From a virus: 43,823 nt of DNA. A model generated the notes under the pieces. That model was not told where the DNA came from. It made no database searches and worked only from the letters and a program-made list of their open reading frames with translations. The position numbers and the translations under genes were made by a program. The DNA lies in IMG/VR virus record IMGVR_UViG_3300045988_085211, positions 1 to 43,823 of that record, one strand, 5' to 3'. Each line of letters starts with the position of its first letter. Position 1 is the first letter of the stretch. Shown here in pieces: positions 11,001-42,602 of the stretch.

Positions 11001-11193
11001 TTATAAATTTTTGCACTTCTGCAAATTCATCTGTCGGCATCTTAGAAGATTCCATTTTACGCATTTCATCGGTTAATACAGATGCTTTTTTTGCAAACTT
11101 TGATAATCGGTTTTCAAGGCGTAGCATCTGGCTAGAGACATCCTTGGTATCTATTTTGGTGTCAATCAAAATACTTCCATCAGCTTTTGGCAT
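8083..11193 (-). CDS. Tail tape measure protein
   Basis: 1036 aa, coiled-coil N-terminus, Gly-rich linker, internal DWKxLG and 29-aa repeats; canonical position. Confidence 0.9.
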   Translation of the reverse strand: MPKADGSILIDTKIDTKDVSSQMLRLENRLSKFAKKASVLTDEMRKMESSKMPTDEFAEVQKFINDTTKKMDGLNERMEKFIAIGGKTDSRAFKSMQYDLDQLTKSLEYARGEAQDYLDSGTAYKSVDDIKTSPEYQKKAEQLSEINAQMDITSQKIEELSAKEEAAASSTDRLATKGEATASSAENIAKEEARAGNEAQKSEKKTRGWLDSFKSKAKSTGEKVSGLASRLKSAGSAFKKFITHGKKGSGMLGTFASRLNGIALSMFVFNWISKGWNAMISAIKDGAQNMAKYSGDVNAKMSQLTSAIATLKNAFGSLAAPIITAVGPALTSLVNMLTSAINKVNQFISALTGKSTWIKAKKQTKDYASGLDKATKSASKLKGQLQSFNELNVISSNSDSGGGSGGGGTNVGDMFSTENIDPKIESLAKKIKDILKTDDWSEIGEMLGKKLTEALEGIPWDGIKKQTKHIASGIATFLNGFLDGTNWELVGSTIAEGLNTAIVFAQTFVHTFDFKKLGKSIGESLTGIFTTFDWKGLGDTLGTFTSGLFEILSELFYNTDWKSLGKGIIDGIGAFFKAIKWKSIGKSISGALHALFTFLTGAIKEINWKETLKYIGTSIADFFKGFDWKGLASDIGEFLGTALKSALDLAKAIGELIGNAFSNAKQYFQDKIDECGGGVVKGIFTGITDALANVGTWIKTNIFDPFIKAFKKAFGIHSPSKEMKPMGKYILEGVWNGITSKMKSLKFKDLMKSMWEGMKKGWGKVKDTYVEFKTKIKDKASDLWSGLKKKWDGVKDKTAEFKSKIATKASDLWSGLKKNWNGVKDKVADFKTKIASDAGDLWSKFHKKWKGVKDKIADFKAKIADSSTPSKLWDSFSKTWANRKKVVSIGIGFVKNSLSNLWSSVTSFFGGKSVNVGTKATKKATGGVYTGGMWHNITQYAVGTENAPAGQLFIAREAGPELVGTLGGHTAVMNNNQIVASVSDGVYRAVRSAIGTKGNNVNVTFKVEGDPNGIFRVTQQKANEYFRATGNPAFEF
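8599..8955 (-). repeat. Four in-frame tandem repeats of about 29 aa inside the tape measure gene
   Basis: DLWSGLKKKWDGVKDKTAEFKSKIATKAS-like units repeated four times. Confidence 0.8.
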
Positions 11194-14448: not shown

Positions 14449-15615
14449 CTATCCTCTGGTAATGATTCGCATGATATTGATTGCCTTGATTGGGTAATAC
14501 TTTGCACTGCCAGATTCATTGTTCTGTGCGATCTCCCAATTGGATCCATCTTCAAGCTGCTCTGCTGTTGGAGATACAATGGTTGGAGTTTTCCAAGAAA
14601 TACCGTATGGGCAGAATACTTTTCTCTGTCTTGTGTACAGAGTTGTCTCGCCGCCGTTCTTTGCAGGATTGCGGTTCATCTCGGACGGAACCTTCACGCC
14701 GCAGTTTGTATACTCGATTGCACCATTTCCAAGAACGTAAGTTGTATACTCCGTGTATGCATCAGCTGTTTTCTCGTAGTATCCAGTTGTCGCAGGATTG
14801 TCACTTGGAGAACCAACAGGCTTGTACTCTTTCGTAGACTGCTCATAGTAAGTCTTACCTGCCTGTACTGTCTGGTCTGTGGTCTTCGTGTACACAGCAT
14901 CAACCTGTCTTGTTGGCATGGTATCGTCAACAAGCACGATTCTGCCATTTAAGGTTGCCAGCGGAAGGTTTCTTTCGATTCCGTTGCTGTCCGTATACTT
15001 CATGTACTCCAAGAGATTAAGATTCTCCAGACCAGTAGCTATGTGGGAATGCATAACAGTAAGTGCAAAGTTTGCTTTCTTGTCACCAAGTGCCACCTGC
15101 ATACCAGTGTTTAATGTTGTAGCACCAAAAGTACCATCTTCTTTTGCAGAAATATCATAGGTGTGCTTTGTTACGAAGTTCTTACCTTCTCCGGTACTCA
15201 TAGAGAACACGCCTTTGAGGGTGCTAAGAAGTGTATCCTGATCCACATCATCCCAGAACTCTGCGACTTCTCCTGCTGCTGCAGAATAGTCATCTCCGGA
15301 GATATCAGATGTAAAGTCCTTCTCCACCCATGCCTGAGCACGTCCAACAACGATACGTCCCATAGCATAATTTCCACGCTCGTCTGCTGTAATGTCTGTC
15401 TTGCCGTCGTAATTTACGCCCTTTCCAGACAAACGTGCTTTGATAAGTGTGGTGATAAAGTTGCCACCTTTCTGATCCGGCAGCATAGAGACATACTCGC
15501 TATGCTCCACAATTGCGCCACAGTGGAGCAATTCATTCATGCGAAGGTTCGGTGTCTCACGCAATACAGCGTCGAATACTTCGCCATTAAAATTTACTAT
15601 GTCAAATAATGCCAT
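14449..15615 (-). CDS. Major capsid protein
   Basis: 388 aa following the scaffold gene; size and order. Confidence 0.8.
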   Translation of the reverse strand: MALFDIVNFNGEVFDAVLRETPNLRMNELLHCGAIVEHSEYVSMLPDQKGGNFITTLIKARLSGKGVNYDGKTDITADERGNYAMGRIVVGRAQAWVEKDFTSDISGDDYSAAAGEVAEFWDDVDQDTLLSTLKGVFSMSTGEGKNFVTKHTYDISAKEDGTFGATTLNTGMQVALGDKKANFALTVMHSHIATGLENLNLLEYMKYTDSNGIERNLPLATLNGRIVLVDDTMPTRQVDAVYTKTTDQTVQAGKTYYEQSTKEYKPVGSPSDNPATTGYYEKTADAYTEYTTYVLGNGAIEYTNCGVKVPSEMNRNPAKNGGETTLYTRQRKVFCPYGISWKTPTIVSPTAEQLEDGSNWEIAQNNESGSAKYYPIKAINIMRIITRG

Positions 15616-18652: not shown

Positions 18653-20122
18653 CTATTCTTCTCCAAATAATCCATCTTTGTTCTGATTTGCATTTTCTTC
18701 ATCGCGCTCGGCAAACATTTCATCGATTTCCTGATCGTTGAATCCCTCATACTCTTTGAGATACTTGCGTTTACTGTATACACCATTCATCATCAGCTGG
18801 TAGGCTCGGGTGCGGTCCTGCTCAAAGGATGCCAGCAGATCCTTAAAATAAAACACATCTTCGTCTGCCACATCCTCATCAAGCGCATTCACATATCCGC
18901 TCGGCATATTGAAAAATACATCACAATATTTATCCAGCGCATACGCCAGATCTTTGATAGCTGTCTTGAGTGCATTTCGGATATCTGTAATCGTTTCTAC
19001 TGTCTCGCTATCATCACTCTCAATCTCTGTTGCTGTGGCAATGCCAGTCTTGCGATCAAGAACAAACTGCCCCTGTGAGAATCCTGCCTTTGTGGAGATC
19101 ATGGAAAGAATAGAGTTGATATCCGCCACTCTCTGCTCTGTGAGCAGTGTCGGCACATGCTCATCAACCGTGTTCTGTGCATCAACTCCCATCTTTAAGC
19201 CCTTTACAAATCTCGGAAGTTCAACCCTTGCCTTATCCCCAGTATTCTTATCACGTTTCATCAGCGCATTTTCATCGATAAATGTGATATGCTGGGAATC
19301 GTCCACCTCATCGTCTTTTCGGCTCCATGCCACATCCAGATTGCGCAATTCCTCGATGCAGTTCACAAATACTGCCACACCCTCAGGGGATGCATAATCA
19401 ATCGTATTGTTATACGGCATCTTGAAATACCCGAACAATGGCTTTTCTACATTGGAAATGCTGATAGATTCCGGTATATCTTTCCACTCTGGTACATCCG
19501 TCAGCTTGATGCTTCTGCCAAGGCTATCACTGCCCCTTGACTTGAAAGCCTTATTCTCAATCGTATATGTACGCCCTGTGCGCTCCCCATCCTCTCCAAT
19601 CGTAGAAGTGAAATGCTGATACTCCAATCTGGTATAGTAATCATCACCTTTAACCTGCCGATCAATAAAAATAACTCCAAGGATGTCCCCATTGCTGTTC
19701 TTTTCCGTTACTGCAAAACTGCCCGGCATTACATAGTCGATTGCTCCGGCCGGATTGTATGTGCCATTAGGCTTTAAGATAATCCCGCCGGCACCACAGG
19801 CATCTTCTACCTTATCCCGGATAGACTTCTGTATCATTGCCCCGATGCACTGATTGATATAATCTGCCCTGTCACTTCCACTGATTGTCACATTGATATC
19901 CAGGCAGGTCTTCTTACTGGTGTAATAGCATAAGAACTTGGCAAAGTTGATTGTACGCACATTCTTGCTCACCCAATACGGTCTACCCTTGATGATGTTC
20001 TGCCACTCGATCTGTGCCATCTCCATCAGATCAGAGGAGATAATATCAACATTAAATTCTTTCTCTGCACTTGTTTTGAATAAATTCATGAAAAACTCCT
20101 TTACTCGTGTGAATATGTTCAT
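18653..20122 (-). CDS. Portal protein
   Basis: 489 aa directly after the terminase; size and order; RBS GGGTGGTGA. Confidence 0.85.
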   Translation of the reverse strand: MNIFTRVKEFFMNLFKTSAEKEFNVDIISSDLMEMAQIEWQNIIKGRPYWVSKNVRTINFAKFLCYYTSKKTCLDINVTISGSDRADYINQCIGAMIQKSIRDKVEDACGAGGIILKPNGTYNPAGAIDYVMPGSFAVTEKNSNGDILGVIFIDRQVKGDDYYTRLEYQHFTSTIGEDGERTGRTYTIENKAFKSRGSDSLGRSIKLTDVPEWKDIPESISISNVEKPLFGYFKMPYNNTIDYASPEGVAVFVNCIEELRNLDVAWSRKDDEVDDSQHITFIDENALMKRDKNTGDKARVELPRFVKGLKMGVDAQNTVDEHVPTLLTEQRVADINSILSMISTKAGFSQGQFVLDRKTGIATATEIESDDSETVETITDIRNALKTAIKDLAYALDKYCDVFFNMPSGYVNALDEDVADEDVFYFKDLLASFEQDRTRAYQLMMNGVYSKRKYLKEYEGFNDQEIDEMFAERDEENANQNKDGLFGEE

Positions 20123-20133
20123 ACGTCACCACC

Positions 20134-20334
20134 CTACAATTTCATAGTAAATGCATTATCTTTCAGCAATACTCCGCGATCTGTCTCGGTAAATACCGGC
20201 TCTGTGCCTTCGTATACTTTCAATTCGACATCCTTCCGCAGAATATTCTCTTTGCCATTATCGGAAATACACGCAATCACTTCTCTTGATTCTTTGTCCA
20301 CAAGAACATAATGCTTACTCTTCATATTCTTCAT
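20134..20334 (-). CDS. Small hypothetical protein between terminase and portal
   Basis: 66-67 aa; RBS GAGGAGG upstream; overlaps the terminase stop. Confidence 0.45.
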   Translation of the reverse strand: MKNMKSKHYVLVDKESREVIACISDNGKENILRKDVELKVYEGTEPVFTETDRGVLLKDNAFTMKL

Positions 20335-22267
20335 CATCTGCCTCCTCGTCTATCTCATCATCGTAAAGTCCATTGTTGCGCCGGCTTTCCATAATCACAC
20401 GGTTCAATCCATAGATCAGCGCCATTACACAGTCCTCACCAATCTTTGGGTACGCATCTGAAAAGCTACCGTCTGCCAACTGCTCATGCTCCAAGGTTGT
20501 CAGCTCATGCGCAAGGTGCGGGCATCGCTCCGGATCAACCACGATCTTTGTGGTCTGTTGTAACCACTCCCAACAGTAGTCTCTACCTTTGCCAGATCCC
20601 CAGCGCTTTTTAGCACCGATCGCATTAAATCCCCAATCCTGCATCTCTGCGATAGCATCTGGGCGAGCAGAATCACAGATAATCTCCTCTTCAAAGTACT
20701 TCTTAATCTTCCGCGCAAATGTACTATTCTTGCACCGCTTGGCAAATACCTCTGCCACGCAATACAACGTGTCTGCATCCTCATCATAGTACGCAACCTC
20801 AAATGTCTGCGGATGCTCGAAACCGAAGTCTAAGCCATAATAGAGAAATGGCAGATTCTCGATCTCTGTGTCCGTGATGGTTCGCTCTTCCACATTGTCG
20901 AAGATACCGCCACCAGTCCCTGTTACTTCCCCAAGGTAATTGTTACGGTAATATAGCGGCTTATGCACCTTAAACCACTCCGCACGCTCGAAGAATCGTT
21001 TACCAAGCCATTTCACTGGCACATTGTAATAATAGCTGTGACACACTCTGGTCTGTGGTTTATTCCGGCACTCTTCCACATACTGGTTCATAAAGTTGTT
21101 CTTTGATTTCGGCGGGTTGAATATCTTTATATCGAGTGCATGGGTGTCCGATCTCAGGAAGGTGTCCTCTATATTATCCATCTGCTCCACACCTGCCATT
21201 TCGTCACACTCTTCGTGGATCAGCATCTTTACATATCCAAATGGCACATTAAACGATTTAAGGGAAATAGGCTTATCCGCCCCCACGAACATTACCATCT
21301 GTCCGGTTGGTTTATACACTGCACACATGGGTGATTGCTTAAAATCCCAGTTATCCAGATCATTGTACCGGATCACGGTTTTCATAAACTGGTTATACAC
21401 AGATCCACGCAGATCAACCTTGTATCGTCTGGTATATACAATATGTGCCTGCGGGTCCTGCCGGATGGTTTCATACGCCAAATCTCCCCAGAAGTTGGAT
21501 TTGATAGAACCACGCCCACCCTTAGACACAATCTCGTGCACATCTACCTCACCGGCAAATGCTTCGTGTACTGTCCGGTAAATCTCCACAAAGTCGGAAG
21601 TAATGTCTGTGATCGGTACAGTCCAAAGTGGTGCTTTCTCGCGCTTTTCCTTTTCCTCTCGCTCAATCTTCTGCTTTTTTGCAATGGTTAATGCCTTTTC
21701 TAAACCATCCATAGCCTTAAGCTGATTAGTGAAGTCCGGTGCAAATCCCCTATCGTCTGTTACCTCTCCCTTTGCTATCTTGCTTCTGCGCTCCTGTATG
21801 TCTGCAAGGCTCATAATGTCGCGATGCTGTTCTTTCTCGATACACTCCATTTGCTCGGCAATTCTCTCTGAAATATTAGGTTTCTTTAGATTCTCGTGTC
21901 CTGTTATTCCAGCCACCTTTTCAGAGTACCCCGCCGCCTTTGCCGCCTGTGTAGCATTTCCACCATTCTTGATGTATTCCGCTGCAAATGCTTCCTGCTT
22001 TGGTGTCAGCTTCTTTCCTGTAGTCTTATCTTTATTTTTTGAAACGTTGCGTTTCGTTTCATTTTTCTTTTGAAACGTTTCACTTGCGTTATCATCCCAT
22101 TTATATCTATTCTTCCATGTCCGGATAGTAGCATCAGAACAATTCAATTGAGTAGCGATATCGACCAACTTCATACCGCTTTTATACAGTTCATATGCTT
22201 TATCACTCAATGGATTCTTCCTTGCTGCCAACCGATCATCTCCTTTCCTGGCACTAAAAAAGGACAT
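20315..22267 (-). CDS. Terminase with small-subunit (HTH + Terminase_2-like) and large-subunit (PBSX/Terminase_3-like) regions in one reading frame
   Basis: LTPKQEAFAAEYIKNGGNATQAAKAAGYS (TerS signature), then Walker A GGRGSIKS and the TerL body, with no intervening stop. Confidence 0.85.
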   Translation of the reverse strand: MSFFSARKGDDRLAARKNPLSDKAYELYKSGMKLVDIATQLNCSDATIRTWKNRYKWDDNASETFQKKNETKRNVSKNKDKTTGKKLTPKQEAFAAEYIKNGGNATQAAKAAGYSEKVAGITGHENLKKPNISERIAEQMECIEKEQHRDIMSLADIQERRSKIAKGEVTDDRGFAPDFTNQLKAMDGLEKALTIAKKQKIEREEKEKREKAPLWTVPITDITSDFVEIYRTVHEAFAGEVDVHEIVSKGGRGSIKSNFWGDLAYETIRQDPQAHIVYTRRYKVDLRGSVYNQFMKTVIRYNDLDNWDFKQSPMCAVYKPTGQMVMFVGADKPISLKSFNVPFGYVKMLIHEECDEMAGVEQMDNIEDTFLRSDTHALDIKIFNPPKSKNNFMNQYVEECRNKPQTRVCHSYYYNVPVKWLGKRFFERAEWFKVHKPLYYRNNYLGEVTGTGGGIFDNVEERTITDTEIENLPFLYYGLDFGFEHPQTFEVAYYDEDADTLYCVAEVFAKRCKNSTFARKIKKYFEEEIICDSARPDAIAEMQDWGFNAIGAKKRWGSGKGRDYCWEWLQQTTKIVVDPERCPHLAHELTTLEHEQLADGSFSDAYPKIGEDCVMALIYGLNRVIMESRRNNGLYDDEIDEEADDEEYEE

Positions 22268-22285
22268 ACCGTTATGGTACATCCT

Positions 22286-22361
22286 CTTGGTAGTCAACCG
22301 GAATCGAACCGATGCCTTGTCTATCAACCTGTTCTGCCAGCCTAAACTATCTTCTACCAAG
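22286..22361 (-). other. tRNA-like element (acceptor stem plus canonical T-arm, no anticodon arm)
   Basis: CTTGGTAG...ATCGG-TTCGATT-CCGGT...CTACCAAG; 76 nt; fills the gap upstream of the terminase start. Confidence 0.35.
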
Positions 22362-22790
22362 ATAATCATACCATATTTTCTTTGCTCTTGCTACCATCTT
22401 CTTCTCTTCAACATTTAGTTTTGTTGCGCCCTTTTCTCCATCTCTTTCATTGTGATAATACCCATGATGCACATGCGGATCTAGTTCTGCATGCTTATGT
22501 CCAAAGTTTATTTCTTTTACATGTTTGTTTTCTTTATCGAAATAAACTATTTTCAATAAATCATTTCCGCCAACTACAGCATAGACCCTCCCTTTTGTCA
22601 TGGTTTCAAAAAGACTTTCTGATTTTCTTGAATTTGATTCTATAAATTTTATATTTCCTGATACCAAAGGTTTTCCATTCACATCCATGATTGAGTGAAA
22701 TTGTGATCCATATTCATTACCTCTATTGCTTATGCCACTATTGGCTCCTCTACCGCCCACTTGATCACTCCTTACTCCACTTTCCATCAA
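22347..22790 (-). CDS. Hypothetical His-rich protein
   Basis: 147-aa ORF; GHKHAELDPHVHHGYYH cluster; start uncertain because it overlaps the upstream gene. Confidence 0.5.
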   Translation of the reverse strand: MMESGVRSDQVGGRGANSGISNRGNEYGSQFHSIMDVNGKPLVSGNIKFIESNSRKSESLFETMTKGRVYAVVGGNDLLKIVYFDKENKHVKEINFGHKHAELDPHVHHGYYHNERDGEKGATKLNVEEKKMVARAKKIWYDYLGRR

Positions 22791-23382
22791 AAGAGTTTAC
22801 CTTCACAATCTTTTCTTTACACTCCTCCGGAACTCTGCCATAAAATATGATCAGCTCCGGCTCCAGCCGCTCCACCATCTCAAAATATCCATCTAAGAAT
22901 CGCCGTTTCTTCTCTGCGCTGTTCTGTGTTCCAACAGAAGAAACCGCAACAACGCTTTGTGTAGGTTCTCCATCAAAGCACCACTCGAACGAATCCCGAT
23001 CACTCCAACAAATTGTTGGAATAACGTTAATACCATGCATCTGCCAGTATGCACCGAGCCAATGCTTTCGGTAATGATTGTAAATCTGCAACGGCTTTGG
23101 GAAGTCCGTATACAGACTGAAATCCGGTGTCAACACATACTTAAACCTCTGCAGCATAGGAATATATTTGTCCGGATCAGTCCATACCCTATTGAACTGG
23201 TAGTCGTCCAGAAAGAAATGCACTGCTTTATCCTCACAGTTCTTCATGCTCTTCGCATAGTTGAATCCGACGAACTCCGCATTATCAAATTGTGTATGTT
23301 CTAACTCCGGAATGTCATACCGACCAACTCCATCAAATAACATCCGTTGTACGTTTTCATAATTTCTCTGTGCTCTGTACAT
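22765..23382 (-). CDS. DUF4417-like protein
   Basis: HFFLDDYQFNRVW..LTPDFSLYTD..NVIPTICW motifs recalled from DUF4417; first gene of the packaging operon. Confidence 0.7.
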   Translation of the reverse strand: MYRAQRNYENVQRMLFDGVGRYDIPELEHTQFDNAEFVGFNYAKSMKNCEDKAVHFFLDDYQFNRVWTDPDKYIPMLQRFKYVLTPDFSLYTDFPKPLQIYNHYRKHWLGAYWQMHGINVIPTICWSDRDSFEWCFDGEPTQSVVAVSSVGTQNSAEKKRRFLDGYFEMVERLEPELIIFYGRVPEECKEKIVKVNSFDGKWSKE

Positions 23383-23451: not shown

Positions 23452-23481
23452 GAAAAAAGAGAGGTCAAACGATCCTCTCCT
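23452..23481 (-). terminator. Intrinsic terminator after the 3-TM protein gene
   Basis: Stem GAGAGG/CCTCTC followed by TTTTTT on the - strand. Confidence 0.65.
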
Positions 23482-23492
23482 TTATTAGTACC

Positions 23493-24116
23493 TTATGCAT
23501 CCTCTTGATTTAAATCGGTTGCCGACATAACGACATTAACTACACCATATTCTTCATCCGTTTTGCTTCCATCATCACAAATGTTTTTATAATGTGCTTT
23601 TTCCTCCTCTGAAAGCATATCATGCCAATCCATTTTGCATGTACTTATTCCACCTTGAATATACTTTATTTGATCCATCGCGCCACTCAACATAAGTTTC
23701 GTATTAGCATCTAAGTTTTCTTCGTCTTGTATGTATTGTTCAATTTTCTTATACGCTGTATTAGCTGCAGATTCAATATAATTTATATGTCGAAATGAAC
23801 GTAATGCCAATTCCTCTTCTTGATTCTTAAATTCAACTTTTGATGATTTTTTTGTTAGCAACCAAGAAAAAACCACACTACCAAAAACATTAATCGCCAC
23901 GGAAGCAAACAATTCTAATTTATGAATTGTTGCAAAATATATTGACCCTACAACAATCAAGAGAGAAAAGACCAATATAAAATTATCCAAATTGACATAC
24001 ATTTTTCTTAGAAATTCATATAAGTTCATATTCTTCGGTCGAATACGCCCCAATATAAAACCAAATACAATGCCTATGCAACACGAAATAATAGCATATT
24101 TAATATCTACTGCCAA
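23493..24116 (-). CDS. Uncharacterised 3-TM membrane protein with helical C-terminal domain (candidate toxin/effector partner of PanA)
   Basis: TTG start overlaps the upstream stop by 10 nt; TM helices at aa 8-25, 46-64 and 69-87; no family recognised. Confidence 0.6.
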   Translation of the reverse strand: MAVDIKYAIISCCIGIVFGFILGRIRPKNMNLYEFLRKMYVNLDNFILVFSLLIVVGSIYFATIHKLELFASVAINVFGSVVFSWLLTKKSSKVEFKNQEEELALRSFRHINYIESAANTAYKKIEQYIQDEENLDANTKLMLSGAMDQIKYIQGGISTCKMDWHDMLSEEEKAHYKNICDDGSKTDEEYGVVNVVMSATDLNQEDA

Positions 24117-24553
24117 TTTTTGTCTATCCTTTCACCGTAATAATCTCTCATATTTTTTAGTGATATTGGGTTTCTAGAATATGTGCTAGAATCACAACCA
24201 ACTCTCGCACTTTGCCACGGCATCTCCGAATGTGTCATCCGTTCCAAGGTATCCGCATCATAATCACCATATGTGCTATAAACTTGATTCAAAAATACTC
24301 GAATGCCTTCATTATTAAATTTAATATCATGCGTGCATCTAGGTATATTTTCCCATCCCCACCCACGATAACGACTGTATAAATCTGGCGAAACAGGACC
24401 GTGAACCCATGCTTCAAATCTGTTTGGGAACAATTGTTTTCCATAGTTAGCCAGATACCACGCTTGTGCATAATAACATAATTTCTGAAGCTTTTTATGC
24501 GACATAGATTCTTTGCTCAAGAAAAAATCCGCAACTTCATAAATGTTTTCCAT
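24107..24553 (-). CDS. DUF4065/Panacea-domain (SocA/GepA-like) antitoxin-type protein
   Basis: KLQKLCYYAQAWYLANYGKQLFPNRFEAWVHGPVSPDLY signature; RBS AAGAGGGA before the ATG at 24553. Confidence 0.75.
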   Translation of the reverse strand: MENIYEVADFFLSKESMSHKKLQKLCYYAQAWYLANYGKQLFPNRFEAWVHGPVSPDLYSRYRGWGWENIPRCTHDIKFNNEGIRVFLNQVYSTYGDYDADTLERMTHSEMPWQSARVGCDSSTYSRNPISLKNMRDYYGERIDKNWQ

Positions 24554-24600
24554 AAGCGTCCCTCTTTCTCCCGTAAATTCACAACCCATTTGGTATTATT

Positions 24601-24629
24601 ATATTAGCATATGCATAAATAGGTGTCAA
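24601..24629 (-). promoter_or_regulatory. Near-consensus sigma-70 promoter for the PanA/3-TM pair
   Basis: TTGACA (24629-24624), 17 bp, TGcTAATAT extended -10 (24609-24601). Confidence 0.65.
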
Positions 24630-24664
24630 TATTACCAAACGTTTGTTCTTGTTTGATAAACACT

Positions 24665-24907
24665 TTACCACACCATCCTCAACTGACCGTTCGGCTCTTC
24701 CACGATACGCCCCAACCTCTGCTTCATGATCCTTTGCGCAATCCTGCGCTTCCTGTAAAAGCAATTCCTGCTAATCGGGAGAATACCGTGGTGTGCTTCC
24801 AGCATGTCGTAGCTTGTCCCGATCACGATGGATTCTGTCAGCTCCGCGGCAATGAAGCTGTCTACTTGGTTGCAGATCTCGAATACTTCCTTTTCGTCCA
24901 CAGGCAT
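24665..24907 (-). CDS. Small sigma-region-4/ArpU-RinA-like HTH regulator (tentative late activator)
   Basis: 80 aa; C-terminal ISRNCFYRKRRIAQRIMKQ resembles sigma-like phage late regulators; lies upstream of the late genes. Confidence 0.4.
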   Translation of the reverse strand: MPVDEKEVFEICNQVDSFIAAELTESIVIGTSYDMLEAHHGILPISRNCFYRKRRIAQRIMKQRLGRIVEEPNGQLRMVW

Positions 24908-24976
24908 TCCCCCTTTCAATTTTTGATAAAAAAATACCAACCATCGTATTTGACGGTTGGTAATATACCTATATAT

Positions 24977-25875: not shown

Positions 25876-27474
25876 CTACGCAAACCGTAACTGTCCGGTC
25901 TGTTCTGCCTTAATCATCATGTTTGGCGTGCGCTCTGCTACACACAACTCCGGCAAGTTCGCTTTGACCAATGCTGCAGGGATTGGCGGGCATACTGCAT
26001 TGCCGCATCTGCGCACCTGCTCGCTGCGTGGGTAAGTTTTGCCAGTATAGTCATGATCGATTATGTAATCATCTGGAAATCCTTGGCATCCATACAATTC
26101 TTTTGGCTCTAACATTCTCAGCCCGATATCTACGATCTGGTAATCCACACCCTCGATTGTCACAAGTCCGAATCTGTCTTTGGTCGTAACCGTATCAAGT
26201 GGTTGCTCTATATCCTGTCCTGTGGCATCGCCGTAGTATTTAATCAAAAACGCTCTGACTTCCCCGAAATGCCCCGGTGATGTAGTAATGGTATGTAATG
26301 GTTCTCTCATATCCTGCCCGGTGCCGCTCTTATAAAATTTACTTAAAAACGATGTAACCAATCCGTACCTGTTCGAGCCATCCACAGTCATAATCGGATC
26401 TTTTATGGTCTGCCCCCGGACTTCTCCCTGTGCTGTCTCGGAATGGTACTGGATCAATGTTGGACTAATAAGACAATGTTCATTTTTGCTTACAATCGTT
26501 GTGAGCGGCTCCCTCACATCCTTACTCCGATCCTTTGTGAACCCGGTCTGCCCGATCTGTACCATGTATGGCTCCACAATCCCGTAACCATGCTTTCCGG
26601 TGATTGTAGGCATCGGCTCTCGGATGTCGTTCGGTCTGCGCTCACCGCCGTGGTTGCACTGGATAATAAATGGCTCCGGATTATCCAAAACGAATTTTTT
26701 CAGTCCTCTTGCGATCCGATCCATCGTTTTGGGTGCAAGTGGTCGCACCGCACGGATTCCATATTTCTTTTTGATTTCCTCTGCCGTATCAAATATGCTC
26801 GGACAAGGAAGAGAAAAATCCAATTGCGTATATGCTCCAACATAAGGTTTTTTCAATCCAGCTTTTACCTCTTCACTGTCTGCCGGTCCGTGCGTTGGAT
26901 CCGGCCATACAATCGGCTTGCCGTCGCACCGGGCGATCATAAAGAATCGTTTACGCATGGTCGGCGCACCATAATCGGCGGCAATCAGCTCACGGAACTC
27001 CACTTTATAGCCAAGATCCCGAAGTTGCTGTACGAACCGCTCAAATGTCTTACCCTGTTTGCTTTTAATCGGATGATGCCGTCTGTTTAATGGTCCCCAT
27101 GTCTTGAACTCTTCCACGTTCTCCAACATGATAACCCTCGGTCTGACAAGTCCTGCCCAGCGTAAGGCTACCCATGCAAGACCTCTGATGTTTTTATCCT
27201 TTGGCTTTCCGCCTTTTGCCTTACTGAAATGCTTACAGTCCGGCGAGAACCAGGCAAGTCCGACCGGATGCCCATTGCATGCCTTAACCGGATCAACCGT
27301 CCACACGTTTTCACAGTAATGCTCGGTGTTCGGATGATTCGCCTTGTGCATCTTGATAGCCTCTGGATCGTGATTGATTGCAATATCAACGCTGTATCCA
27401 GTTGCCAGTTCAATCCCGGTTGAAGCTCCACCCCCGCCGGCAAAATTGTCAACTATCAATTCTCCGTTAATCAT
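25876..27474 (-). CDS. DNA (cytosine-5) methyltransferase with expanded multi-repeat target-recognition region
   Basis: Motifs DNFAGGGG (I), SPDCKHFS (IV), ENV (VI), MRKR (VIII) and GNAV (X); five EPLxTIT-like repeats between VIII and IX. Confidence 0.9.
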   Translation of the reverse strand: MINGELIVDNFAGGGGASTGIELATGYSVDIAINHDPEAIKMHKANHPNTEHYCENVWTVDPVKACNGHPVGLAWFSPDCKHFSKAKGGKPKDKNIRGLAWVALRWAGLVRPRVIMLENVEEFKTWGPLNRRHHPIKSKQGKTFERFVQQLRDLGYKVEFRELIAADYGAPTMRKRFFMIARCDGKPIVWPDPTHGPADSEEVKAGLKKPYVGAYTQLDFSLPCPSIFDTAEEIKKKYGIRAVRPLAPKTMDRIARGLKKFVLDNPEPFIIQCNHGGERRPNDIREPMPTITGKHGYGIVEPYMVQIGQTGFTKDRSKDVREPLTTIVSKNEHCLISPTLIQYHSETAQGEVRGQTIKDPIMTVDGSNRYGLVTSFLSKFYKSGTGQDMREPLHTITTSPGHFGEVRAFLIKYYGDATGQDIEQPLDTVTTKDRFGLVTIEGVDYQIVDIGLRMLEPKELYGCQGFPDDYIIDHDYTGKTYPRSEQVRRCGNAVCPPIPAALVKANLPELCVAERTPNMMIKAEQTGQLRFA

Positions 27475-33834: not shown

Positions 33835-34364
33835 GCTGCACCCCATTCCTGCTTCATGCGTTCCAATTCATCCGGTGTAGCTGTCTCAATTCCAAGCTCC
33901 TGCGCCTCTTCAACGATGCGGTCAATAAAGCGGCTCATTTCTGCGGTGTTGTATTCGCTCGATCCCTTAATCATCAGATAGGATGCAAAATTGCCGTTAT
34001 CTTTAATATGTTTCCAATGGCCAGACACCTTTGCCATGTCTACTGTCTTTTTAACTGTAATAGTGATATATCCGCTTTCATCCTCGTAAAACGTGCCGTA
34101 CTTCTGGAGCATATCCTCGTATACATCTTCTTTACTGGAAGAGATATCCGGATGGTTGGCAATCTTGGTCATAAGCACCCATGCATAAGCATTAGCATCA
34201 AGGCTCCGCTTCTGGCGGTACTTAACCGCCTTTATCCGAAGCAGATCATATTTTTTCACGCTTTCAATCTGTCCGGATGCCGAAGCATCAACCTCGAAAG
34301 TGAGGATGATGCTATTTCCGTCAAATGTCCGGCTGGCTCCGGTAAGCTTTCCAGTAGTTTCCAT
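33831..34364 (-). CDS. NinB/Orf-like recombination mediator (tentative)
   Basis: KRSLDANAYAWVLMTKIA motif resembles NinB; lies adjacent to ERF. Confidence 0.35.
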   Translation of the reverse strand: METTGKLTGASRTFDGNSIILTFEVDASASGQIESVKKYDLLRIKAVKYRQKRSLDANAYAWVLMTKIANHPDISSSKEDVYEDMLQKYGTFYEDESGYITITVKKTVDMAKVSGHWKHIKDNGNFASYLMIKGSSEYNTAEMSRFIDRIVEEAQELGIETATPDELERMKQEWGAA

Positions 34365-35029
34365 TAGGCATCAGCTTCTTTCTTTTTCTTGTACCAAAAC
34401 TCTACCTGCTCGATGAGCTTGTCTGCCAGCTCGGTAGAAATATCACCTGTACCGTTATAGTGGTATGTTTTCTTTAACATATCAGTAACATCTGATTCCT
34501 TGGTGTTTTTACACATTCCGGCGTATGCCATAATAAATTCATTAAGTTTTCTCAACTGTTCCGGTGTTGCCGGATTAAACTGTGGCTTCTCCGTGTCCGG
34601 TGTTTCTTCATCCGGGTCCTTCATTTCTTCTGTCGGAATACAAAACACTTGGAAGCACGCATACTTAAATGCAATAGCCATAGCCTTATTGGTTGCCTTG
34701 TCTCCGGAATCCATTCCCTCACCGACGGTTACCGCTTCGATGCAGGAACCGTCCTCGGCATAAAAGGTGTACTTGATCCGACACACTGAATAAATCAATG
34801 CCCCACCGCTTTTCGTTGTGCGTTCTTCCCTCGACTGGTCCAGCACTTCCGGCACAATAAACACATGGTTTTTGGTCAATGCAGGGTTAATTGCATTCAT
34901 CACCGCATCAATGCCACGGTATTTAAAACCCTGCTGTTTGTTAACTGCATCCTTGCCGACGGCCCCGATCTCTTCCATGCATCGGGAAATGGCTTCGTAA
35001 ATATTCATTTTCTTTGCTGTCTCTGCCAT
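34364..35029 (-). CDS. erf: ERF-family single-strand annealing protein
   Basis: GFKYRGIDAVMNAINPAL ... GEGMDSGDKATNKAMAIAFKYA signature. Confidence 0.85.
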   Translation of the reverse strand: MAETAKKMNIYEAISRCMEEIGAVGKDAVNKQQGFKYRGIDAVMNAINPALTKNHVFIVPEVLDQSREERTTKSGGALIYSVCRIKYTFYAEDGSCIEAVTVGEGMDSGDKATNKAMAIAFKYACFQVFCIPTEEMKDPDEETPDTEKPQFNPATPEQLRKLNEFIMAYAGMCKNTKESDVTDMLKKTYHYNGTGDISTELADKLIEQVEFWYKKKKEADA

Positions 35030-39812: not shown

Positions 39813-39846
39813 TATCTTCTCGATTTTGTGAAAGAAGGTGTACCAC

Positions 39847-40911
39847 ATGAAGAAAAAGCATGGAATATTATGGTATATTGTAGTTTTTCCCTTTATTGCA
39901 CCATTTTATTTAGCCTACTACATTTTTTTATTTTTCATATCACTTAGTATATATATGATACAATTGCCTTTTCGTATATGCCAAATATGTTTTAAGCAAA
40001 TTGTACAATTGTTTAAAATTCCGTTTTCTCATAAGGAAACTGTTACTAATGGGATTGAATATGAACAATATTGTGCCAATTACTTAAACAGGCATGGATA
40101 TCGAAATGCCAAAGTAACAAAGGCAAGCGGCGATCATGGTGTTGATGTTATAGCATATAAAAGAGGTAAAAAATACGCAGTTCAATGTAAATATTATTCC
40201 TCTCCAGTAGGCAATAAAGCAATTCAAGAAGTTTATACTGGAATTGCTTTATATGATTGCAATCATGGAATTGTTATCACAAATTCAACCTTTACAAAAC
40301 AGGCGAAAGCCGAAGCTTCAAAACTCGGGATAAAACTTATGCCTATGGTTGAGCCACAAGGAAAGCTTTTCCCTGTAAAGTCAATACTTGCGTTTATTAT
40401 TTTTATACTGTTTTTGGTGTATCCCAAAGAAGTAATTATATTTCTTTCAATTATATTCTTCATGATTCTTGTTTACTATTTAGGACGTAGAACATATTTG
40501 AAAATGAAATACAAGGTTCCCGAACAGGAAACATTTAATTCGAAGTGGGACCTCGAAGAAAAACAACCTTCAACTGAAATTGAGCCAACTTTAACTTTTG
40601 AAAATACAGTTGAAAAAGATCTTTCATATATTTCCGAGGTCGATCCATATACCACTCTTAATCAGGAGAAATGTGAGGAAAAAATAATTACTGAGCAGCT
40701 TACTGAACAAGTTTCTGAACAAGTTTCTGAACAGGTTTCCAATCATGATCGTAGCGAAACCAAACATAAAGAACCAAAGCGTTCCAATAATTCAAGTAGA
40801 AGTATAACCACAAAGCCCAAACCTCCCCTTTCTAGATACGATTTGGAAAGGTACGCTGTTATGTGCAATGCTGATTTAGAACATAAAGATGAAATGGAGC
40901 AATATAAATAA
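39847..40911 (+). CDS. Membrane-embedded Mrr_cat-type restriction-endonuclease-domain protein
   Basis: GDHGVDVIAY..YAVQCKYY..GIVITNSTFTKQA core flanked by TM helices on both sides; acidic repeat tail. Confidence 0.7.
   Translation: MKKKHGILWYIVVFPFIAPFYLAYYIFLFFISLSIYMIQLPFRICQICFKQIVQLFKIPFSHKETVTNGIEYEQYCANYLNRHGYRNAKVTKASGDHGVDVIAYKRGKKYAVQCKYYSSPVGNKAIQEVYTGIALYDCNHGIVITNSTFTKQAKAEASKLGIKLMPMVEPQGKLFPVKSILAFIIFILFLVYPKEVIIFLSIIFFMILVYYLGRRTYLKMKYKVPEQETFNSKWDLEEKQPSTEIEPTLTFENTVEKDLSYISEVDPYTTLNQEKCEEKIITEQLTEQVSEQVSEQVSNHDRSETKHKEPKRSNNSSRSITTKPKPPLSRYDLERYAVMCNADLEHKDEMEQYK
40705..40740 (+). repeat. 12-bp x3 in-frame tandem repeat (EQVS)3
   Basis: GAACAAGTTTCT GAACAAGTTTCT GAACAGGTTTCC. 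Confidence 0.9.
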
Positions 40912-41284: not shown

Positions 41285-41335
41285 TGTAAACCGATATTAC
41301 CAAAAAGATAATGAAACTGTATGGAAAGGAAAAAT

Positions 41336-42445: not shown

Positions 42446-42602
42446 TAAAACCGCCCTGCTCTACCAAAGCAAGGCGGCAAGCTCCCGAATGATACGAAAG
42501 CCCTAAGCAAGCATATTGTATCATTCTCGGAGCAGCTACGCAAGCGGAACACCCGTTCCACGCTGGCTGTTATTTTTATACACAATTTTAAGGAGGTACA
42601 AT

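What the first reader, a model, noticed from the sequence alone, without database searches (positions are those of the whole stretch)
23452..24645. PanA (DUF4065) antitoxin-like gene coupled to an unassignable 3-TM protein under its own consensus promoter: candidate new toxin-antitoxin / abortive-infection module
The gene at 24107-24553 carries KLQKLCYYAQAW..FEAWVHGPVSPDLY. This is the hallmark of the DUF4065/Panacea (SocA/GepA-like) antitoxin domain, which is known to pair with many unrelated toxins. Its stop overlaps by 10 nt the TTG start of a 207-aa protein. That protein has three N-terminal TM helices and an acidic helical C-terminal domain of about 120 aa that I cannot place in any family. 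The pair has its own promoter (TTGACA, 17 bp, TGcTAATAT at 24601-24629) and its own terminator (23452-23481). It looks AT-richer than its flanks by eye and sits between the early genes and the packaging operon. That layout is typical of a lysogen-expressed moron. Inference: the membrane protein is a toxin or effector held in check by PanA and serves phage defence or superinfection exclusion.
Basis: partly seen in the sequence, partly recalled or inferred. Interest (0 to 1): 0.8.

Follow-up and report, generated by a model that had tools for sequence, protein, structure and literature searches.

The report
PanA antitoxin–membrane toxin prophage cassette
A temperate gut-bacterium (Roseburia-type) phage carries a small two-gene cargo cassette: a Panacea (PanA) antitoxin gene coupled to an uncharacterised three-helix membrane protein, behind a promoter with a DNA-damage (LexA) box. 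This is a new toxin family inside an already known class of toxin-antitoxin systems.

Summary
On the minus strand, 24107-24553 encodes a stand-alone Panacea/DUF4065 protein (PF13274, 79 bits, GPV motif). Its stop overlaps by 10 nt the TTG start of a 207-aa protein (23493-24116). That protein has three N-terminal TM helices, a conserved acidic cytoplasmic helical hairpin, and no family, fold or PDB match.

The pairing is conserved. Every homologue with upstream DNA, down to 28% identity, has a PanA gene directly upstream, usually overlapping by 4-11 nt. Genomic contexts are unrelated. PanA and partner co-diverge (r=0.88).

About 75 related phages share the flanking genes. Most have about 100 nt at this junction and others carry different cargo, so it is a moron hotspot.

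Two corrections. The terminator belongs to the phage backbone, not to the cassette. The conserved promoter is preceded by a clostridial LexA box (exact in 10 of 20 distinct loci against 1% background), so expression is probably SOS-gated rather than constitutive.

PanA paired with membrane-depolarising toxins is already established (Kurata 2022, Ernits 2023). This is therefore a new member of a known kind. Toxicity, neutralisation and any defence role remain untested.

The parts
24637..24648 (-). LexA (SOS) box-like palindrome GAACAAACGTTT. It ends 7 nt upstream of the -35 hexamer and marks the 5' limit of the anciently conserved cassette.
   Evidence: It matches the clostridial operator GAACnnnnGTTT, and the C. 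difficile recA operator is GAACAAATGTTT (PMC4234289). An exact GAACnnnnGTTY box occurs in 10 of 20 distinct panA upstream regions against 9 of 872 background windows, p about 2e-15. In 9 of those loci it starts 19-22 nt before TTGACR. In the window taken alone the motif is not significant. Homology to the diverged cassette L034 (75% identity) starts at 24650.
24601..24629 (-). Sigma-70-type promoter: TTGACA, 17-nt spacer, extended -10 TGcTAATAT.
   Evidence: scores it 10 of 12 plus TG. The same aTTGACAc-17-TGnTAnnAT arrangement recurs upstream of panA in most homologous loci, despite diverged surrounding sequence and unrelated contexts.
24107..24553 (-). panA: stand-alone Panacea/DUF4065 protein of 148 aa with no extra N- or C-terminal domain. 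It carries the GPV motif at residues 52-54.
   Evidence: PF13274, 79.2 bits. phrog_1281. The AlphaFold2 model has pLDDT 95 and pTM 0.91. G52, P53 and V54 are invariant in 25 homologues. The identical protein is named 'Panacea domain-containing protein [Roseburia faecis]' by NCBI.
23493..24116 (-). Putative PanT toxin/effector gene, 207 aa, with a TTG start translationally coupled to panA. Protein layout: TM1 residues 5-25, amphipathic helix 32-41, TM2 46-66, TM3 69-88, cytoplasmic antiparallel helical hairpin about 89-166, disordered acidic tail ending in the conserved NQEDA.
   Evidence: ORF. 134 homologues, none annotated with a function: most carry no name, the few named ones are 'hypothetical protein' or 'uncharacterized membrane protein', and one cluster member bears an automatic histidine-kinase label. 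The N-termini of homologues align with the TTG start, and the invariant motifs are FSWLLTKK, RHINY and IKYIQGGI.TCKMDW.D.LS. AlphaFold2 model. Topology. The start overlaps the panA stop by 4-11 nt in 15 of 20 distinct loci.
23853..24104 (-). Membrane-embedded part of the partner protein (TM1-TM3, residues 5-88).
   Evidence: Kyte-Doolittle scores above 1.6 for three segments. Mean K+R is 3.2 in loop 1 and 4.5 after TM3, against 0.7 at the N-terminus and 0.4 in loop 2. Helices are seen in the model.
23619..23852 (-). Conserved cytoplasmic helical hairpin (residues 89-166). It is the most conserved part of the family and the inferred PanA-binding and/or oligomerisation domain.
   Evidence: pLDDT 85-93. 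The invariant polar residues R109, N112, K151, Y152, Q154, G155, G156, T159, K161, D163, W164 and D166 cluster here, with H110 conserved in at least 90% of sequences. No structural relative was found.
23452..23483 (-). Intrinsic terminator hairpin plus T-run. It functionally ends the panAT transcript but is inherited from the phage backbone, where it is the terminator of the upstream 91-aa gene in insert-free relatives.
   Evidence: dG -17.5 kcal/mol, z=-3.4. The sequence CCTCTCTTTTTTCATGCC(C)TAAA is shared with empty-site phages L061, L062 and L102. Regions downstream of the toxin gene are unrelated in other panAT loci.

Best explanation
Window 24650-23493 (minus strand) is a self-contained, horizontally mobile PanA-PanT cassette. 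It is a type II toxin-antitoxin module of the Panacea class, carried as accessory cargo at a variable junction of a temperate Lachnospiraceae (Roseburia faecis-type) siphophage. The junction lies between the last early/regulatory gene and the packaging operon.

Shown:
- A stand-alone Panacea protein is translationally coupled to a 3-TM inner-membrane protein.
- The two genes are inherited as one unit with their own conserved promoter.
- The unit occurs in unrelated genomic contexts.

Inferred mechanism:
1. The membrane protein inserts N-out/C-in.
2. Its conserved cytoplasmic helical hairpin mediates oligomerisation into a membrane-depolarising or permeabilising assembly.
3. PanA binds this cytoplasmic, juxtamembrane part directly and keeps it inactive, as shown for stand-alone Panacea with the Bartonella membrane toxin.
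4. The weak TTG start and the coupling keep toxin synthesis at or below antitoxin synthesis.

Inferred regulation: stand-alone PanA has no DNA-binding domain. Transcription is instead gated by host LexA through the box just upstream of the -35, so DNA damage raises expression.

Inferred role: release of the effector stops growth. Release would follow loss, titration or triggering of PanA, for example by an infecting phage. This gives abortive infection or exclusion and/or stabilises the element.
For: PanA identity:
- PF13274 at 79 bits over the full profile, with the GPV motif. A high-confidence compact fold.

Conserved pairing:
- Among loci fetched with the toxin as query, every one with an intact toxin homologue and upstream DNA has a PanA gene directly upstream. 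This holds down to 28-36% toxin identity (L019, L021, L025).
- The overlap is 4-11 nt in 15 of 20 distinct loci.
- Pairwise identities of PanA and partner correlate, r=0.88 over 17 pairs.
- Degraded copies fit a TA pattern. PanA is intact with a frameshifted toxin in L043. Both genes are frameshifted in L017. An orphan 81-residue toxin fragment without PanA occurs in L018 and L050. No intact toxin lacks PanA.

Mobility:
- Contexts include a prophage accessory region with AntA/Bro-N, a chromosomal island next to Phd/ParE and PBECR4, an MmeI restriction-modification island with an integrase, and IMG/VR viral contigs.
- The identical cassette sits in at least three phage backbones, always just before the packaging genes.
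- In about 75 related phages the orf91|DUF4417 junction is usually empty (about 100 nt) or holds other cargo: a LexA-DBD-only protein, a TIR-like protein, or TM proteins.
- GC drops to 0.31.

Membrane protein:
-.

Precedent:
- PanA-neutralised TM toxins depolarise membranes (PMC8832971).
- Stand-alone Panacea neutralises directly by contacting the region next to the TM segment, and Panacea probably does not autoregulate transcription (PMC10440598).

LexA box:
-.
Against: - No experiment or computation here shows toxicity, PanA binding or neutralisation.
- In Kurata et al., 8 of 25 tested PanTs were non-toxic in E. coli and 5 were not rescued. About 1,000 Panacea proteins had no predicted toxin partner.
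- The most conserved part of the partner is a polar cytoplasmic domain rather than the TM helices. That is unusual for a simple pore-former and could indicate another activity.
- Distant homologues of 300-400 aa that share the TM-hairpin core are not next to PanA. The core is therefore not obligatorily toxic or antitoxin-dependent.
- The LexA box lies upstream of the -35 rather than over it. Half of the loci lack an exact box, and the loci share ancestry, so the p-values overstate independence.
- No PADLOC defence model matches beyond a weak, probably compositional hit.
Confidence: 0.6

Rival explanations
1. The pair is a conserved two-component membrane system that is not a toxin-antitoxin. 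The 3-TM protein would be a non-toxic membrane-anchored scaffold, sensor or superinfection-exclusion factor acting at the membrane, for example against DNA injection. PanA would be its soluble partner or sensor rather than a neutraliser.
For: - The conserved part is a polar cytoplasmic hairpin with invariant R, N, K, Q, D and W residues (plus a near-invariant H110), which suggests specific binding rather than lipid disruption.
- Long-branch homologues exist without PanA.
- Ernits et al. favour a sensory role for Panacea.
- About 1,000 Panacea proteins lack a predicted toxin.
- There is a weak recurrent similarity (18 of 25 members, best E=2.4e-4) to the TM-anchor region of PD-lambda-1/SNIPE, a membrane-bound anti-injection nuclease.
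Against: - Strict co-inheritance, start/stop overlap and the decay pattern (no intact partner without PanA) are the classic TA signature.
- The protein has no enzymatic or DNA-binding domain.
- The SNIPE similarity covers only a TM helix plus a coiled helix, at 15 bits.
Confidence: 0.15
2. It is a type VI-like system. PanA would act as a proteolytic adaptor, as SocA does for SocB, delivering the membrane protein to a protease such as ClpXP or FtsH. The disordered acidic C-terminal tail with its conserved terminal NQEDA would serve as the degradation or docking signal.
For: - SocA is a Panacea-domain protein that works this way (PMC8832971).
- The partner ends in a low-confidence tail (the last three 10-residue blocks average pLDDT about 50; residues 184-194 are below 50) whose last five residues are near-invariant while the linker is variable.
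Against: - NCBIfam's SocA equivalog model scores 53 bits against a cut-off of 190.
- The PanATs tested by Kurata et al. did not need ClpXP or Lon and formed stable complexes.
- Stand-alone Panacea neutralises directly.
Confidence: 0.1
3. The module is a real PanAT whose only biological role is selfish. It would act as post-segregational or addiction-type stabilisation of the cassette and the prophage, or as SOS-linked dormancy (TisB-like persistence), with no role in phage defence.
For: - The cassette also sits in non-phage chromosomal islands beside another TA pair, Phd/ParE.
- LexA-controlled membrane toxins such as TisB cause depolarisation and tolerance after DNA damage (PMC11997105, PMC12626290).
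- No defence-database model matches.
Against: - Its neighbours are often defence-type genes: an MmeI restriction-modification system in L021, and PBECR4 in L007.
- The same phage junction holds a TIR-like protein in a relative.
- Phage-borne TA cargo of this type has shown defence activity in other families, for example Kita RosmerTA (PMC10440598).
Confidence: 0.2
4. The pair is a lysis-timing device of the phage. The membrane protein would be a holin-like protein and the cytoplasmic protein an antiholin.
For: - The membrane protein has three TM helices.
- Expression is possibly SOS-linked in a prophage.
Against: - The endolysin lies about 23 kb away at 85-624.
- Most related phages lack the pair altogether.
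- The cassette also occurs outside phages.
- The protein is much larger than typical holins and has a 120-aa cytoplasmic domain.
Confidence: 0.03

Closest known systems
PanA-PanT (Panacea) type II TA systems with membrane-targeting toxins: E. coli STEC O31 PanT (cluster T3), Bartonella apis/choladocola PanT (T12/D11), Helicobacter sp. PanT (Kurata et al. 2022, PMC8832971; Ernits et al. 2023, PMC10440598)
   Same: - A stand-alone Panacea antitoxin sits upstream of, and overlaps, a gene for a TM protein.
- Some of these systems are phage- or prophage-borne.
- The toxin has a cytoplasmic segment next to its TM region, which is where Panacea binds in the Bartonella pair.
   Different: - The validated toxins are described as small peptides with a charged N-terminus and C-terminal TM helices, or a coiled coil followed by C-terminal TMs. 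Here three TM helices come first and are followed by a 120-aa conserved acidic helical domain.
A profile search of 1.84 billion representatives returned only proteins with this family's own motifs.
- tblastn found no match in 50,697 phage records, which include Streptococcus phage P9, carrier of another membrane PanT.
- No LexA box has been reported for PanAT; neither word occurs in the paper.
SocA-SocB (type VI TA, Caulobacter)
   Same: The antitoxin carries the Panacea/DUF4065 domain.
   Different: - SocA is a ClpXP adaptor, and SocB is a soluble inhibitor of the replication clamp.
- The window's PanA scores 53 bits against a cut-off of 190 for the NCBIfam SocA equivalog.
TisB/IstR-1 and other LexA-controlled membrane toxins of E. 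coli (type I TA)
   Same: A membrane-inserted toxin is transcribed from a LexA-box promoter. By analogy, the expected consequence is depolarisation after DNA damage (PMC11997105, PMC12626290).
   Different: - TisB is a 29-aa peptide controlled by an antisense RNA (my own knowledge). Here the antitoxin is a protein and the toxin has 207 aa.
- The host is a Firmicute with a GAAC-N4-GTTY operator.
- The resemblance is functional only. There is no homology.
PD-lambda-1 / SNIPE (membrane-bound GIY-YIG nuclease that cuts injected phage DNA; PMC13190303)
   Same: There is a weak PADLOC hit of residues 70-158 to profile positions 7-103, the TM anchor plus the following helix. It is seen in 18 of 25 family members.
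   Different: - The window protein has no DUF4041 and no GIY-YIG domain.
- Bit scores are about 15.
[quoted passage not shown]
- The window protein is not a member.
Phage 'morons' / accessory-gene hotspots in temperate phages
   Same: - AT-rich cargo with its own promoter is inserted between conserved backbone genes.
- There is presence/absence polymorphism, with alternative cargo at the same junction.
   Different: - The classical definition includes an own terminator. Here the terminator is the resident one of the upstream backbone gene.
- The promoter looks SOS-gated rather than lysogen-constitutive.

Membership tests
Panacea/PanA antitoxin (Pfam PF13274, DUF4065) | Significant match to the PF13274 profile above the gathering threshold | tested here: met
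   79.2 bits against a cut-off of 25.7, E=5.8e-22, profile positions 1-113 of 113.
Panacea/PanA antitoxin (Pfam PF13274, DUF4065) | Conserved GPV signature motif, reported as critical for neutralisation (PMC8832971) | tested here: met
   HGPVSPDLY is present. G52, P53 and V54 are invariant in 25 homologues.
PanAT type II TA module | Conserved bicistronic, closely spaced or overlapping arrangement with a partner gene across genomes | tested here: met
   PanA lies directly upstream in every locus that has an intact partner and upstream DNA. The overlap is 4-11 nt in 15 of 20 distinct loci. Contexts are unrelated.
PanAT type II TA module | The partner is toxic when expressed alone and is rescued by the cognate PanA | not testable with these tools
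   This needs expression assays. The only indirect evidence is the decay pattern: no intact partner occurs without PanA, and frameshifted toxins occur with intact PanA.
PanAT type II TA module | Direct PanA-toxin complex formation | not testable with these tools
Co-divergence of r=0.88 is compatible with a complex but is not proof.
Validated membrane PanT clusters (T3, T12/D11, Helicobacter PanT) | Sequence homology to a validated membrane PanT | not tested
   The sequences of WP_000019185.1, WP_077993242.1 and WP_095295403.1 were not available. The architecture differs (TMs first, long C-terminal domain). The RefSeq homologue WP_118530219.1 and the host genera Roseburia and Acetatifactor are absent from the PanAT tables. 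Blautia appears only once, in a MazF (T9) pair, and not as B. producta. The stored files are truncated.
SocA (type VI antitoxin, NCBIfam NF047745 equivalog) | Score above the equivalog cut-off | tested here: not met
   53 bits against a cut-off of 190. Only residues 16-72 match.
PD-lambda-1 / SNIPE | DUF4041 plus a GIY-YIG nuclease domain after the TM anchor | tested here: not met
   Only profile positions 7-103 of 496 match, at about 15 bits. There is no Pfam hit to DUF4041 or GIY-YIG.
LexA (SOS) regulon of Firmicutes/Clostridia | GAAC-N4-GTT(C/T) operator in the promoter region | tested here: met
   GAACAAACGTTT lies at 24648-24637, 7 nt upstream of the -35. An exact box occurs in 10 of 20 homologous loci against 1% background.
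LexA (SOS) regulon of Firmicutes/Clostridia | LexA binding and DNA-damage induction | not testable with these tools
   This needs EMSA or SPR with the host LexA, and RNA measurements after mitomycin C.
Phage moron | Accessory insertion between conserved backbone genes, with presence/absence polymorphism and deviant composition | tested here: met
   Most of about 75 related phages have about 100 nt at the junction. Others carry different cargo. GC is 0.31 against 0.42-0.49.
Phage moron | Own promoter and own terminator | tested here: inconclusive
   The promoter is conserved with the cassette. The terminator is backbone-derived, and downstream regions are unrelated in other loci.

The most novel reading that the evidence does not exclude
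The cassette is an SOS-gated, protein-antitoxin counterpart of TisB-type membrane toxins, spread by phages among human-gut Lachnospiraceae.

In this reading LexA sets the level of a PanA-effector complex. PanA acts as a trigger sensor, as Ernits et al. hypothesise for Panacea. The effector is a new kind of membrane protein whose conserved cytoplasmic hairpin and terminal NQEDA peptide form a regulated switch rather than a passive pore. This would link the host DNA-damage response, prophage induction and exclusion of competing phages.

The wider TM-hairpin superfamily, including PanA-independent 300-400-aa forms with extra C-terminal domains, would then be an unrecognised family of membrane-anchored effectors.
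Probability: 0.2. Interest if true: 0.65.

Novelty: new member of a known kind. Interest (0 to 1): 0.45.

Why it matters
- It adds an unannotated and apparently sizeable toxin/effector family to the PanAT class. The family has 134 clusters at 90% identity and 138 representatives at 50%. The identical antitoxin occurs in at least 68 index blocks of public assemblies, including human-gut metagenome samples.
- Its hosts, gut Lachnospiraceae and their temperate phages, are poorly studied for TA and defence biology.
- The conserved LexA box gives a concrete, testable answer to how PanA operons without a DNA-binding domain are regulated.
- The orf91|DUF4417 junction is a defined cargo hotspot that can be mined for further accessory or defence genes.
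- If the membrane protein proves toxic, its conserved cytoplasmic hairpin offers a handle on how Panacea recognises membrane toxins.

Tried and rejected
- **Family assignment of the 207-aa protein.** Pfam, PHROGs, PADLOC, NCBIfam, PDB sequence profiles, and Foldseek against PDB and BFVD gave nothing usable. The FtsX, MLANA and 'putative transporter' hits are sub-threshold and reflect TM composition.
- **PD-lambda-1/SNIPE lead.** Followed up and rejected as membership.
- **Phage database.** megablast and tblastn found no match.
- **PanA model against PDB by Foldseek.** No significant hit; the best was DarG at E=1.2. No PDB sequence hit either.
- **Prior listing of the family in Kurata 2022 or NetFlax tables.** The accession and the host genera were not found, except Blautia, which appears only in an unrelated MazF pair. 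The stored files are truncated, so this is weak negative evidence. Cluster T1, which contains Lachnospiraceae entries, is an mRNase family and not this one.
- **CapRel link.** I considered that the C-terminal antitoxin domain of CapRel is Panacea-like and rejected it after reading the paper. The two are distinct clusters.
- **Rfam and repeat scans of the region.** No RNA antitoxin and no flanking repeats.
- **Second GAAC box inside panA (24428-24439).** Not conserved in homologues and treated as chance.
- **Holin/antiholin reading.** Rejected on distribution.
Full report
**1. What is in the sequence**

Both genes lie on the minus strand.

- **panA** runs from ATG 24553 to TAG 24109-24107 and encodes 148 aa. 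A GAGAAAGAGGGA ribosome-binding site lies 7 nt upstream.
  - An in-frame ATG at 24589 would add 12 residues. It has no RBS, and homologues start at MENIY/MESIY.
  - The protein matches Pfam PF13274 (SocA_Panacea) over the whole profile at 79.2 bits, against a cut-off of 25.7. It also matches phrog_1281.
  - It carries the GPV motif that Kurata et al. call the signature of Panacea.
  - It has no additional domain. AlphaFold2 gives a compact fold with pLDDT 95.
- **The second ORF** (24116-23493, 207 aa) starts at a TTG that overlaps the panA stop by 10 nt. A GAAAGGA Shine-Dalgarno sequence sits 10 nt upstream, inside the conserved YGERI codons of panA.
  - Homologue N-termini (MAIDIK..., MVIDIKY...) align with this start.
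  - Most homologues use an ATG at the equivalent position.

**2. The partner protein**

- Three segments exceed Kyte-Doolittle 1.6: residues 5-25, 46-66 and 69-88. Across 25 homologues, loop 1 and the stretch after TM3 are K/R-rich (means 3.2 and 4.5). The N-terminus and loop 2 are not (0.7 and 0.4). This gives an N-out/C-in topology.
- AlphaFold2 (pLDDT 76, pTM 0.45) shows TM3 continuing into a long cytoplasmic helix (68-131) that packs against a second helix (137-166). This hairpin has pLDDT 85-93. It is followed by a low-confidence acidic tail (block means about 50; residues 184-194 below 50).
- Conservation is highest in the end of TM3 and in the hairpin, not in TM1-TM2. The motifs are N.F....FSWLLTKK, ALRS(Y/F)RHINYIE.AAN and IKYIQGGI.TCKMDW.D.LS. 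The last five residues, NQEDA, are also conserved.
- Nothing places the protein in a family.
  - Pfam, PHROGs and NCBIfam give only sub-threshold TM-type hits.
  - A PDB sequence profile search finds nothing.
  - Foldseek against PDB and BFVD gives only generic helical hairpins at E above 0.4.
- PADLOC gives a weak hit to PD-lambda-1 that recurs in 18 of 25 members, with a best E of 2.4e-4.
  - PD-lambda-1 is SNIPE, which has a TM anchor, DUF4041 and a GIY-YIG nuclease.
  - Only its TM anchor and the following helix are matched.
  - I treat this as compositional similarity and not as membership.

**3. Is the pairing real?**

- The partner has 134 homologous clusters at 90% identity. None is annotated with a function. 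Those with a named source come from Lachnospiraceae, Eubacteriales, Clostridium, Blautia, Acetatifactor or Roseburia.
- I fetched loci through exact-protein look-ups and through scans of genomes, viral contigs and metagenomes.
- In every locus with an intact homologue and upstream DNA, a PF13274 gene lies directly upstream. This includes distant pairs: L019 (toxin 30%, PanA 49% identity), L021 (36% and 46%) and L025 (28% and 39%).
- The partner's start overlaps the panA stop by 4-11 nt in 15 of 20 distinct loci.
- Pairwise identities of the two proteins correlate, r=0.88 over 17 pairs.
- Degraded copies follow the pattern expected for a TA pair:
  - L043 has an intact PanA and a broken partner.
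  - L017 has frameshifts in both genes.
  - L018 and L050 carry an 81-residue remnant without PanA.
  - No intact partner lacks PanA.
- A full profile search of 1.84 billion representatives found 138 clusters. They include a branch of 300-400-aa proteins that keep the TM-hairpin motifs (F.W..K.S..EF, A..AYRR, DW.D.IGEE) and add a C-terminal domain. In the few contigs available these are not next to PanA.

**4. Context**

*The window is a complete temperate siphophage.*

| Feature | Coordinates |
|---|---|
| Endolysin | 85-624 |
| Tape measure | 8083-11193 |
| Major head protein | 14449-15615 |
| Portal | 18653-20122 |
| Terminase | 20315-22369 |
| DUF4417 protein | 22765-23382 |
| Cassette | 23493-24650 |
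| C5-methyltransferase | 25876-27474 |
| ERF recombinase | 34364-35029 |
| Mrr-like nuclease (plus strand) | 39838-40911 |
| RhuM (plus strand) | 41321-42445 |
| Integrase (plus strand) | 42516-43610 |

*Likely host.* The identical PanA is annotated by NCBI in Roseburia faecis and occurs in at least 68 index blocks.

*A cargo hotspot.*
- About 75 IMG/VR phages share the order orf91, DUF4417, phrog_9479, terminase.
- Most have about 100 nt between orf91 and DUF4417. Only the window's own contig has panAT there.
- Other relatives carry different cargo at the same junction:
  - a 78-84-aa protein consisting only of the LexA DNA-binding domain (PF01726, 1e-13)
  - that protein plus a 116-aa TM protein
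  - a 2.4-kb insert
  - a 222-aa protein
  - a TIR-like 242-aa protein (PADLOC TIR effector, 1e-12)
- GC falls to 0.31 in the partner gene, against 0.42-0.49 around it.
- The cassette is therefore accessory cargo in a hotspot.

*Outside this phage family.* The cassette sits in prophage accessory regions (AntA/Bro-N), beside Phd/ParE and PBECR4 in a chromosomal island, and beside an MmeI-type restriction-modification system and an integrase.

*Limits of the mobile unit.*
- Near-identical copies in three different phage backbones extend from 24965 to about 23396. They include orf91 and the region before the packaging genes.
- Diverged cassettes (70-75% identity) share only 24650-23493. That span runs from the LexA box or promoter to the partner's stop codon.

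**5. Transcription signals**

*Promoter.*
- The TTGACA-17-TGcTAATAT promoter is present.
- By itself it is unremarkable, because such matches occur at chance rate here. However, the same aTTGACAc-17-TGnTAnnAT arrangement precedes panA in most homologous loci.

*Terminator.*
- The hairpin after the partner gene is real (dG -17.5 kcal/mol, z=-3.4).
- Alignment with empty-site phages shows that CCTCTCTTTTTTCATGCC(C)TAAA and the sequence after it belong to the backbone. There the hairpin terminates orf91.
- Regions downstream of the partner gene are unrelated in other loci.
- The cassette therefore brought a promoter and uses the resident terminator.

*LexA box (a new observation).*
- A GAAC-N4-GTT(C/T) palindrome lies just upstream of the -35. 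In the window it is GAACAAACGTTT at 24648-24637.
- This is the LexA operator of Bacillus and clostridia. The C. difficile recA operator is GAACAAATGTTT (PMC4234289).
- In the window alone it is not significant.
- An exact box is present in 10 of 20 distinct panA upstream regions, against 9 of 872 background windows from the same loci (binomial p about 2e-15). In 9 of them it starts 19-22 nt before TTGACR.
- With one mismatch allowed (against GAAC-N4-GTTC), 12 of 20 regions have a box against a 4.6% background. Two of these lie downstream of the -10.
- The loci share ancestry, so the p-values overstate independence. Even so, the surrounding sequence has diverged while the box and its spacing have not.
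- Stand-alone Panacea has no DNA-binding domain and probably does not autoregulate (PMC10440598). LexA control is therefore a plausible substitute.
- This argues against simple constitutive 'lysogen expression'.

**6. Mechanism**

*Shown:*
- a coupled, co-inherited and mobile PanA plus 3-TM-protein unit with its own promoter

*Inferred from established PanAT biology:*
- PanA-associated TM toxins from E. coli, Bartonella and Helicobacter depolarise or permeabilise the membrane and are neutralised by PanA. PanATs form complexes (PMC8832971).
- Stand-alone Panacea neutralises directly by contacting the segment next to the toxin's TM region (PMC10440598).

*Proposed steps:*
1. The 207-aa protein inserts N-out/C-in.
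2. PanA holds its cytoplasmic hairpin.
3. When PanA is lost, titrated or triggered, the protein oligomerises and collapses membrane potential.

The TTG start and the coupling keep toxin output at or below that of PanA. Defence, exclusion, addiction and SOS-linked dormancy are all compatible with the data and cannot be separated here.

*Caveats:*
- Toxicity, binding and LexA control are untested.
- A sizeable share of predicted PanTs were non-toxic or not rescued in E. coli.
- The strongest conservation lies in a polar cytoplasmic domain.
- PanA-free long homologues exist.

**7. Comparison and novelty**

- *What it works like.* It works like a PanAT module with a membrane toxin. It passes the testable membership criteria of that class: the Panacea domain, the GPV motif, and a conserved overlapping bicistron.
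- *What it is not.* It is not a SocA equivalog (53 bits against 190). It is not SNIPE.
- *The toxin family.*
  - Its architecture differs from the validated membrane PanTs, with TMs first and a long conserved C-terminal domain.
  - The family is unannotated.
  - The RefSeq homologue WP_118530219.1 and the host genera Roseburia and Acetatifactor do not appear in the PanAT tables of Kurata 2022 or NetFlax. Blautia appears only in an unrelated MazF pair.
  - Those stored files are truncated, and I could not compare sequences directly.
- *Verdict.* This is a new member of a known kind. The conserved SOS box, the hotspot and the wide occurrence of the identical cassette in public assemblies, including human-gut samples, keep it moderately interesting (0.45).

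Noticed in passing
L093:4658-4894, L060:1521-1757, L063:4649-4894, L053:4283-4537 (phages related to the window, same junction as the cassette): Several related phages encode, at the junction where the window has panAT, a 78-84-aa protein that consists only of the LexA DNA-binding domain (PF01726, E=1e-13) and lacks the cleavage/dimerisation domain. It sits just before the packaging operon, which recalls the LexA-homologue late activator gp6 of phage GIL01 (PMC6182141, title and abstract only). A link to the LexA box of the panAT promoter is unexplored.
   Followed up: partly
window 39838-40911 (+) and 41321-42445 (+), next to the integrase at 42516-43610: A second accessory locus lies on the opposite strand. 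It holds an Mrr_cat restriction-endonuclease-like protein (PADLOC PDC-S02 / ZorD nuclease-domain hits) and a RhuM-family protein (PADLOC candidate system PDC-S05, E=7e-150). This is probably lysogen-expressed defence cargo at the attachment-site end of the prophage.
   Followed up: partly
window 20315-22369 (-): The 684-aa terminase ORF matches small-subunit PHROGs over residues 62-230 and large-subunit PHROGs over 280-664. Small and large terminase subunits therefore appear fused in one polypeptide. In related contigs the gene caller gives a 650-aa product with the same mix of domains.
   Followed up: no
L125:417-1145: One related phage carries a 242-aa protein at the same hotspot that matches the PADLOC TIR effector model (E=1.2e-12). 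This supports the junction as a place where defence-type cargo accumulates.
   Followed up: partly
P0212 (L020), P0240 (L023), P0263 (L024), P0198, P0226: A distant branch of 300-400-aa proteins shares the TM plus helical-hairpin core motifs (F.W..K.S..EF, A..AYRR, DW.D.IGEE). These proteins add a coiled coil and a beta-rich C-terminal domain of unknown family, and they are not preceded by PanA. Their upstream neighbours are a DUF4411 protein and a DAHP synthase.
   Followed up: partly
window 24665-24940 (-) and terminator 24962-24935 (-): The 91-aa gene upstream of the cassette (orf91) is conserved in about 65 related phages, immediately before the packaging operon. It is preceded by a strong terminator and travels together with panAT in near-identical copies found in other phage backbones (window 24965-23396). 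It may be the late-gene activator. It has no family assignment beyond a weak phrog_11237 hit.
   Followed up: no
window 24116-24088 (-): A second promoter-like site (TTGGCA-17-TG.TATTAT, 10 of 12) coincides with the TTG start of the partner gene. A transcript from it could only encode a form starting at Met30 and lacking TM1. One contig's gene call (L132, 169 aa) also starts internally. It is probably chance.
   Followed up: no
window 24428-24439: A second exact GAACnnnnGTTT match (GAACAATTGTTT on the plus strand) lies inside panA, about 115 nt after its start. It is not conserved in homologous cassettes, so it is probably chance.
   Followed up: yes
L017, L043, L018, L050: These are decayed copies of the cassette. 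Both genes are frameshifted in L017. The partner is disrupted while PanA is intact in L043. An orphan fragment covering residues 38-118 of the partner, without PanA, occurs in L018 and L050.
   Followed up: partly
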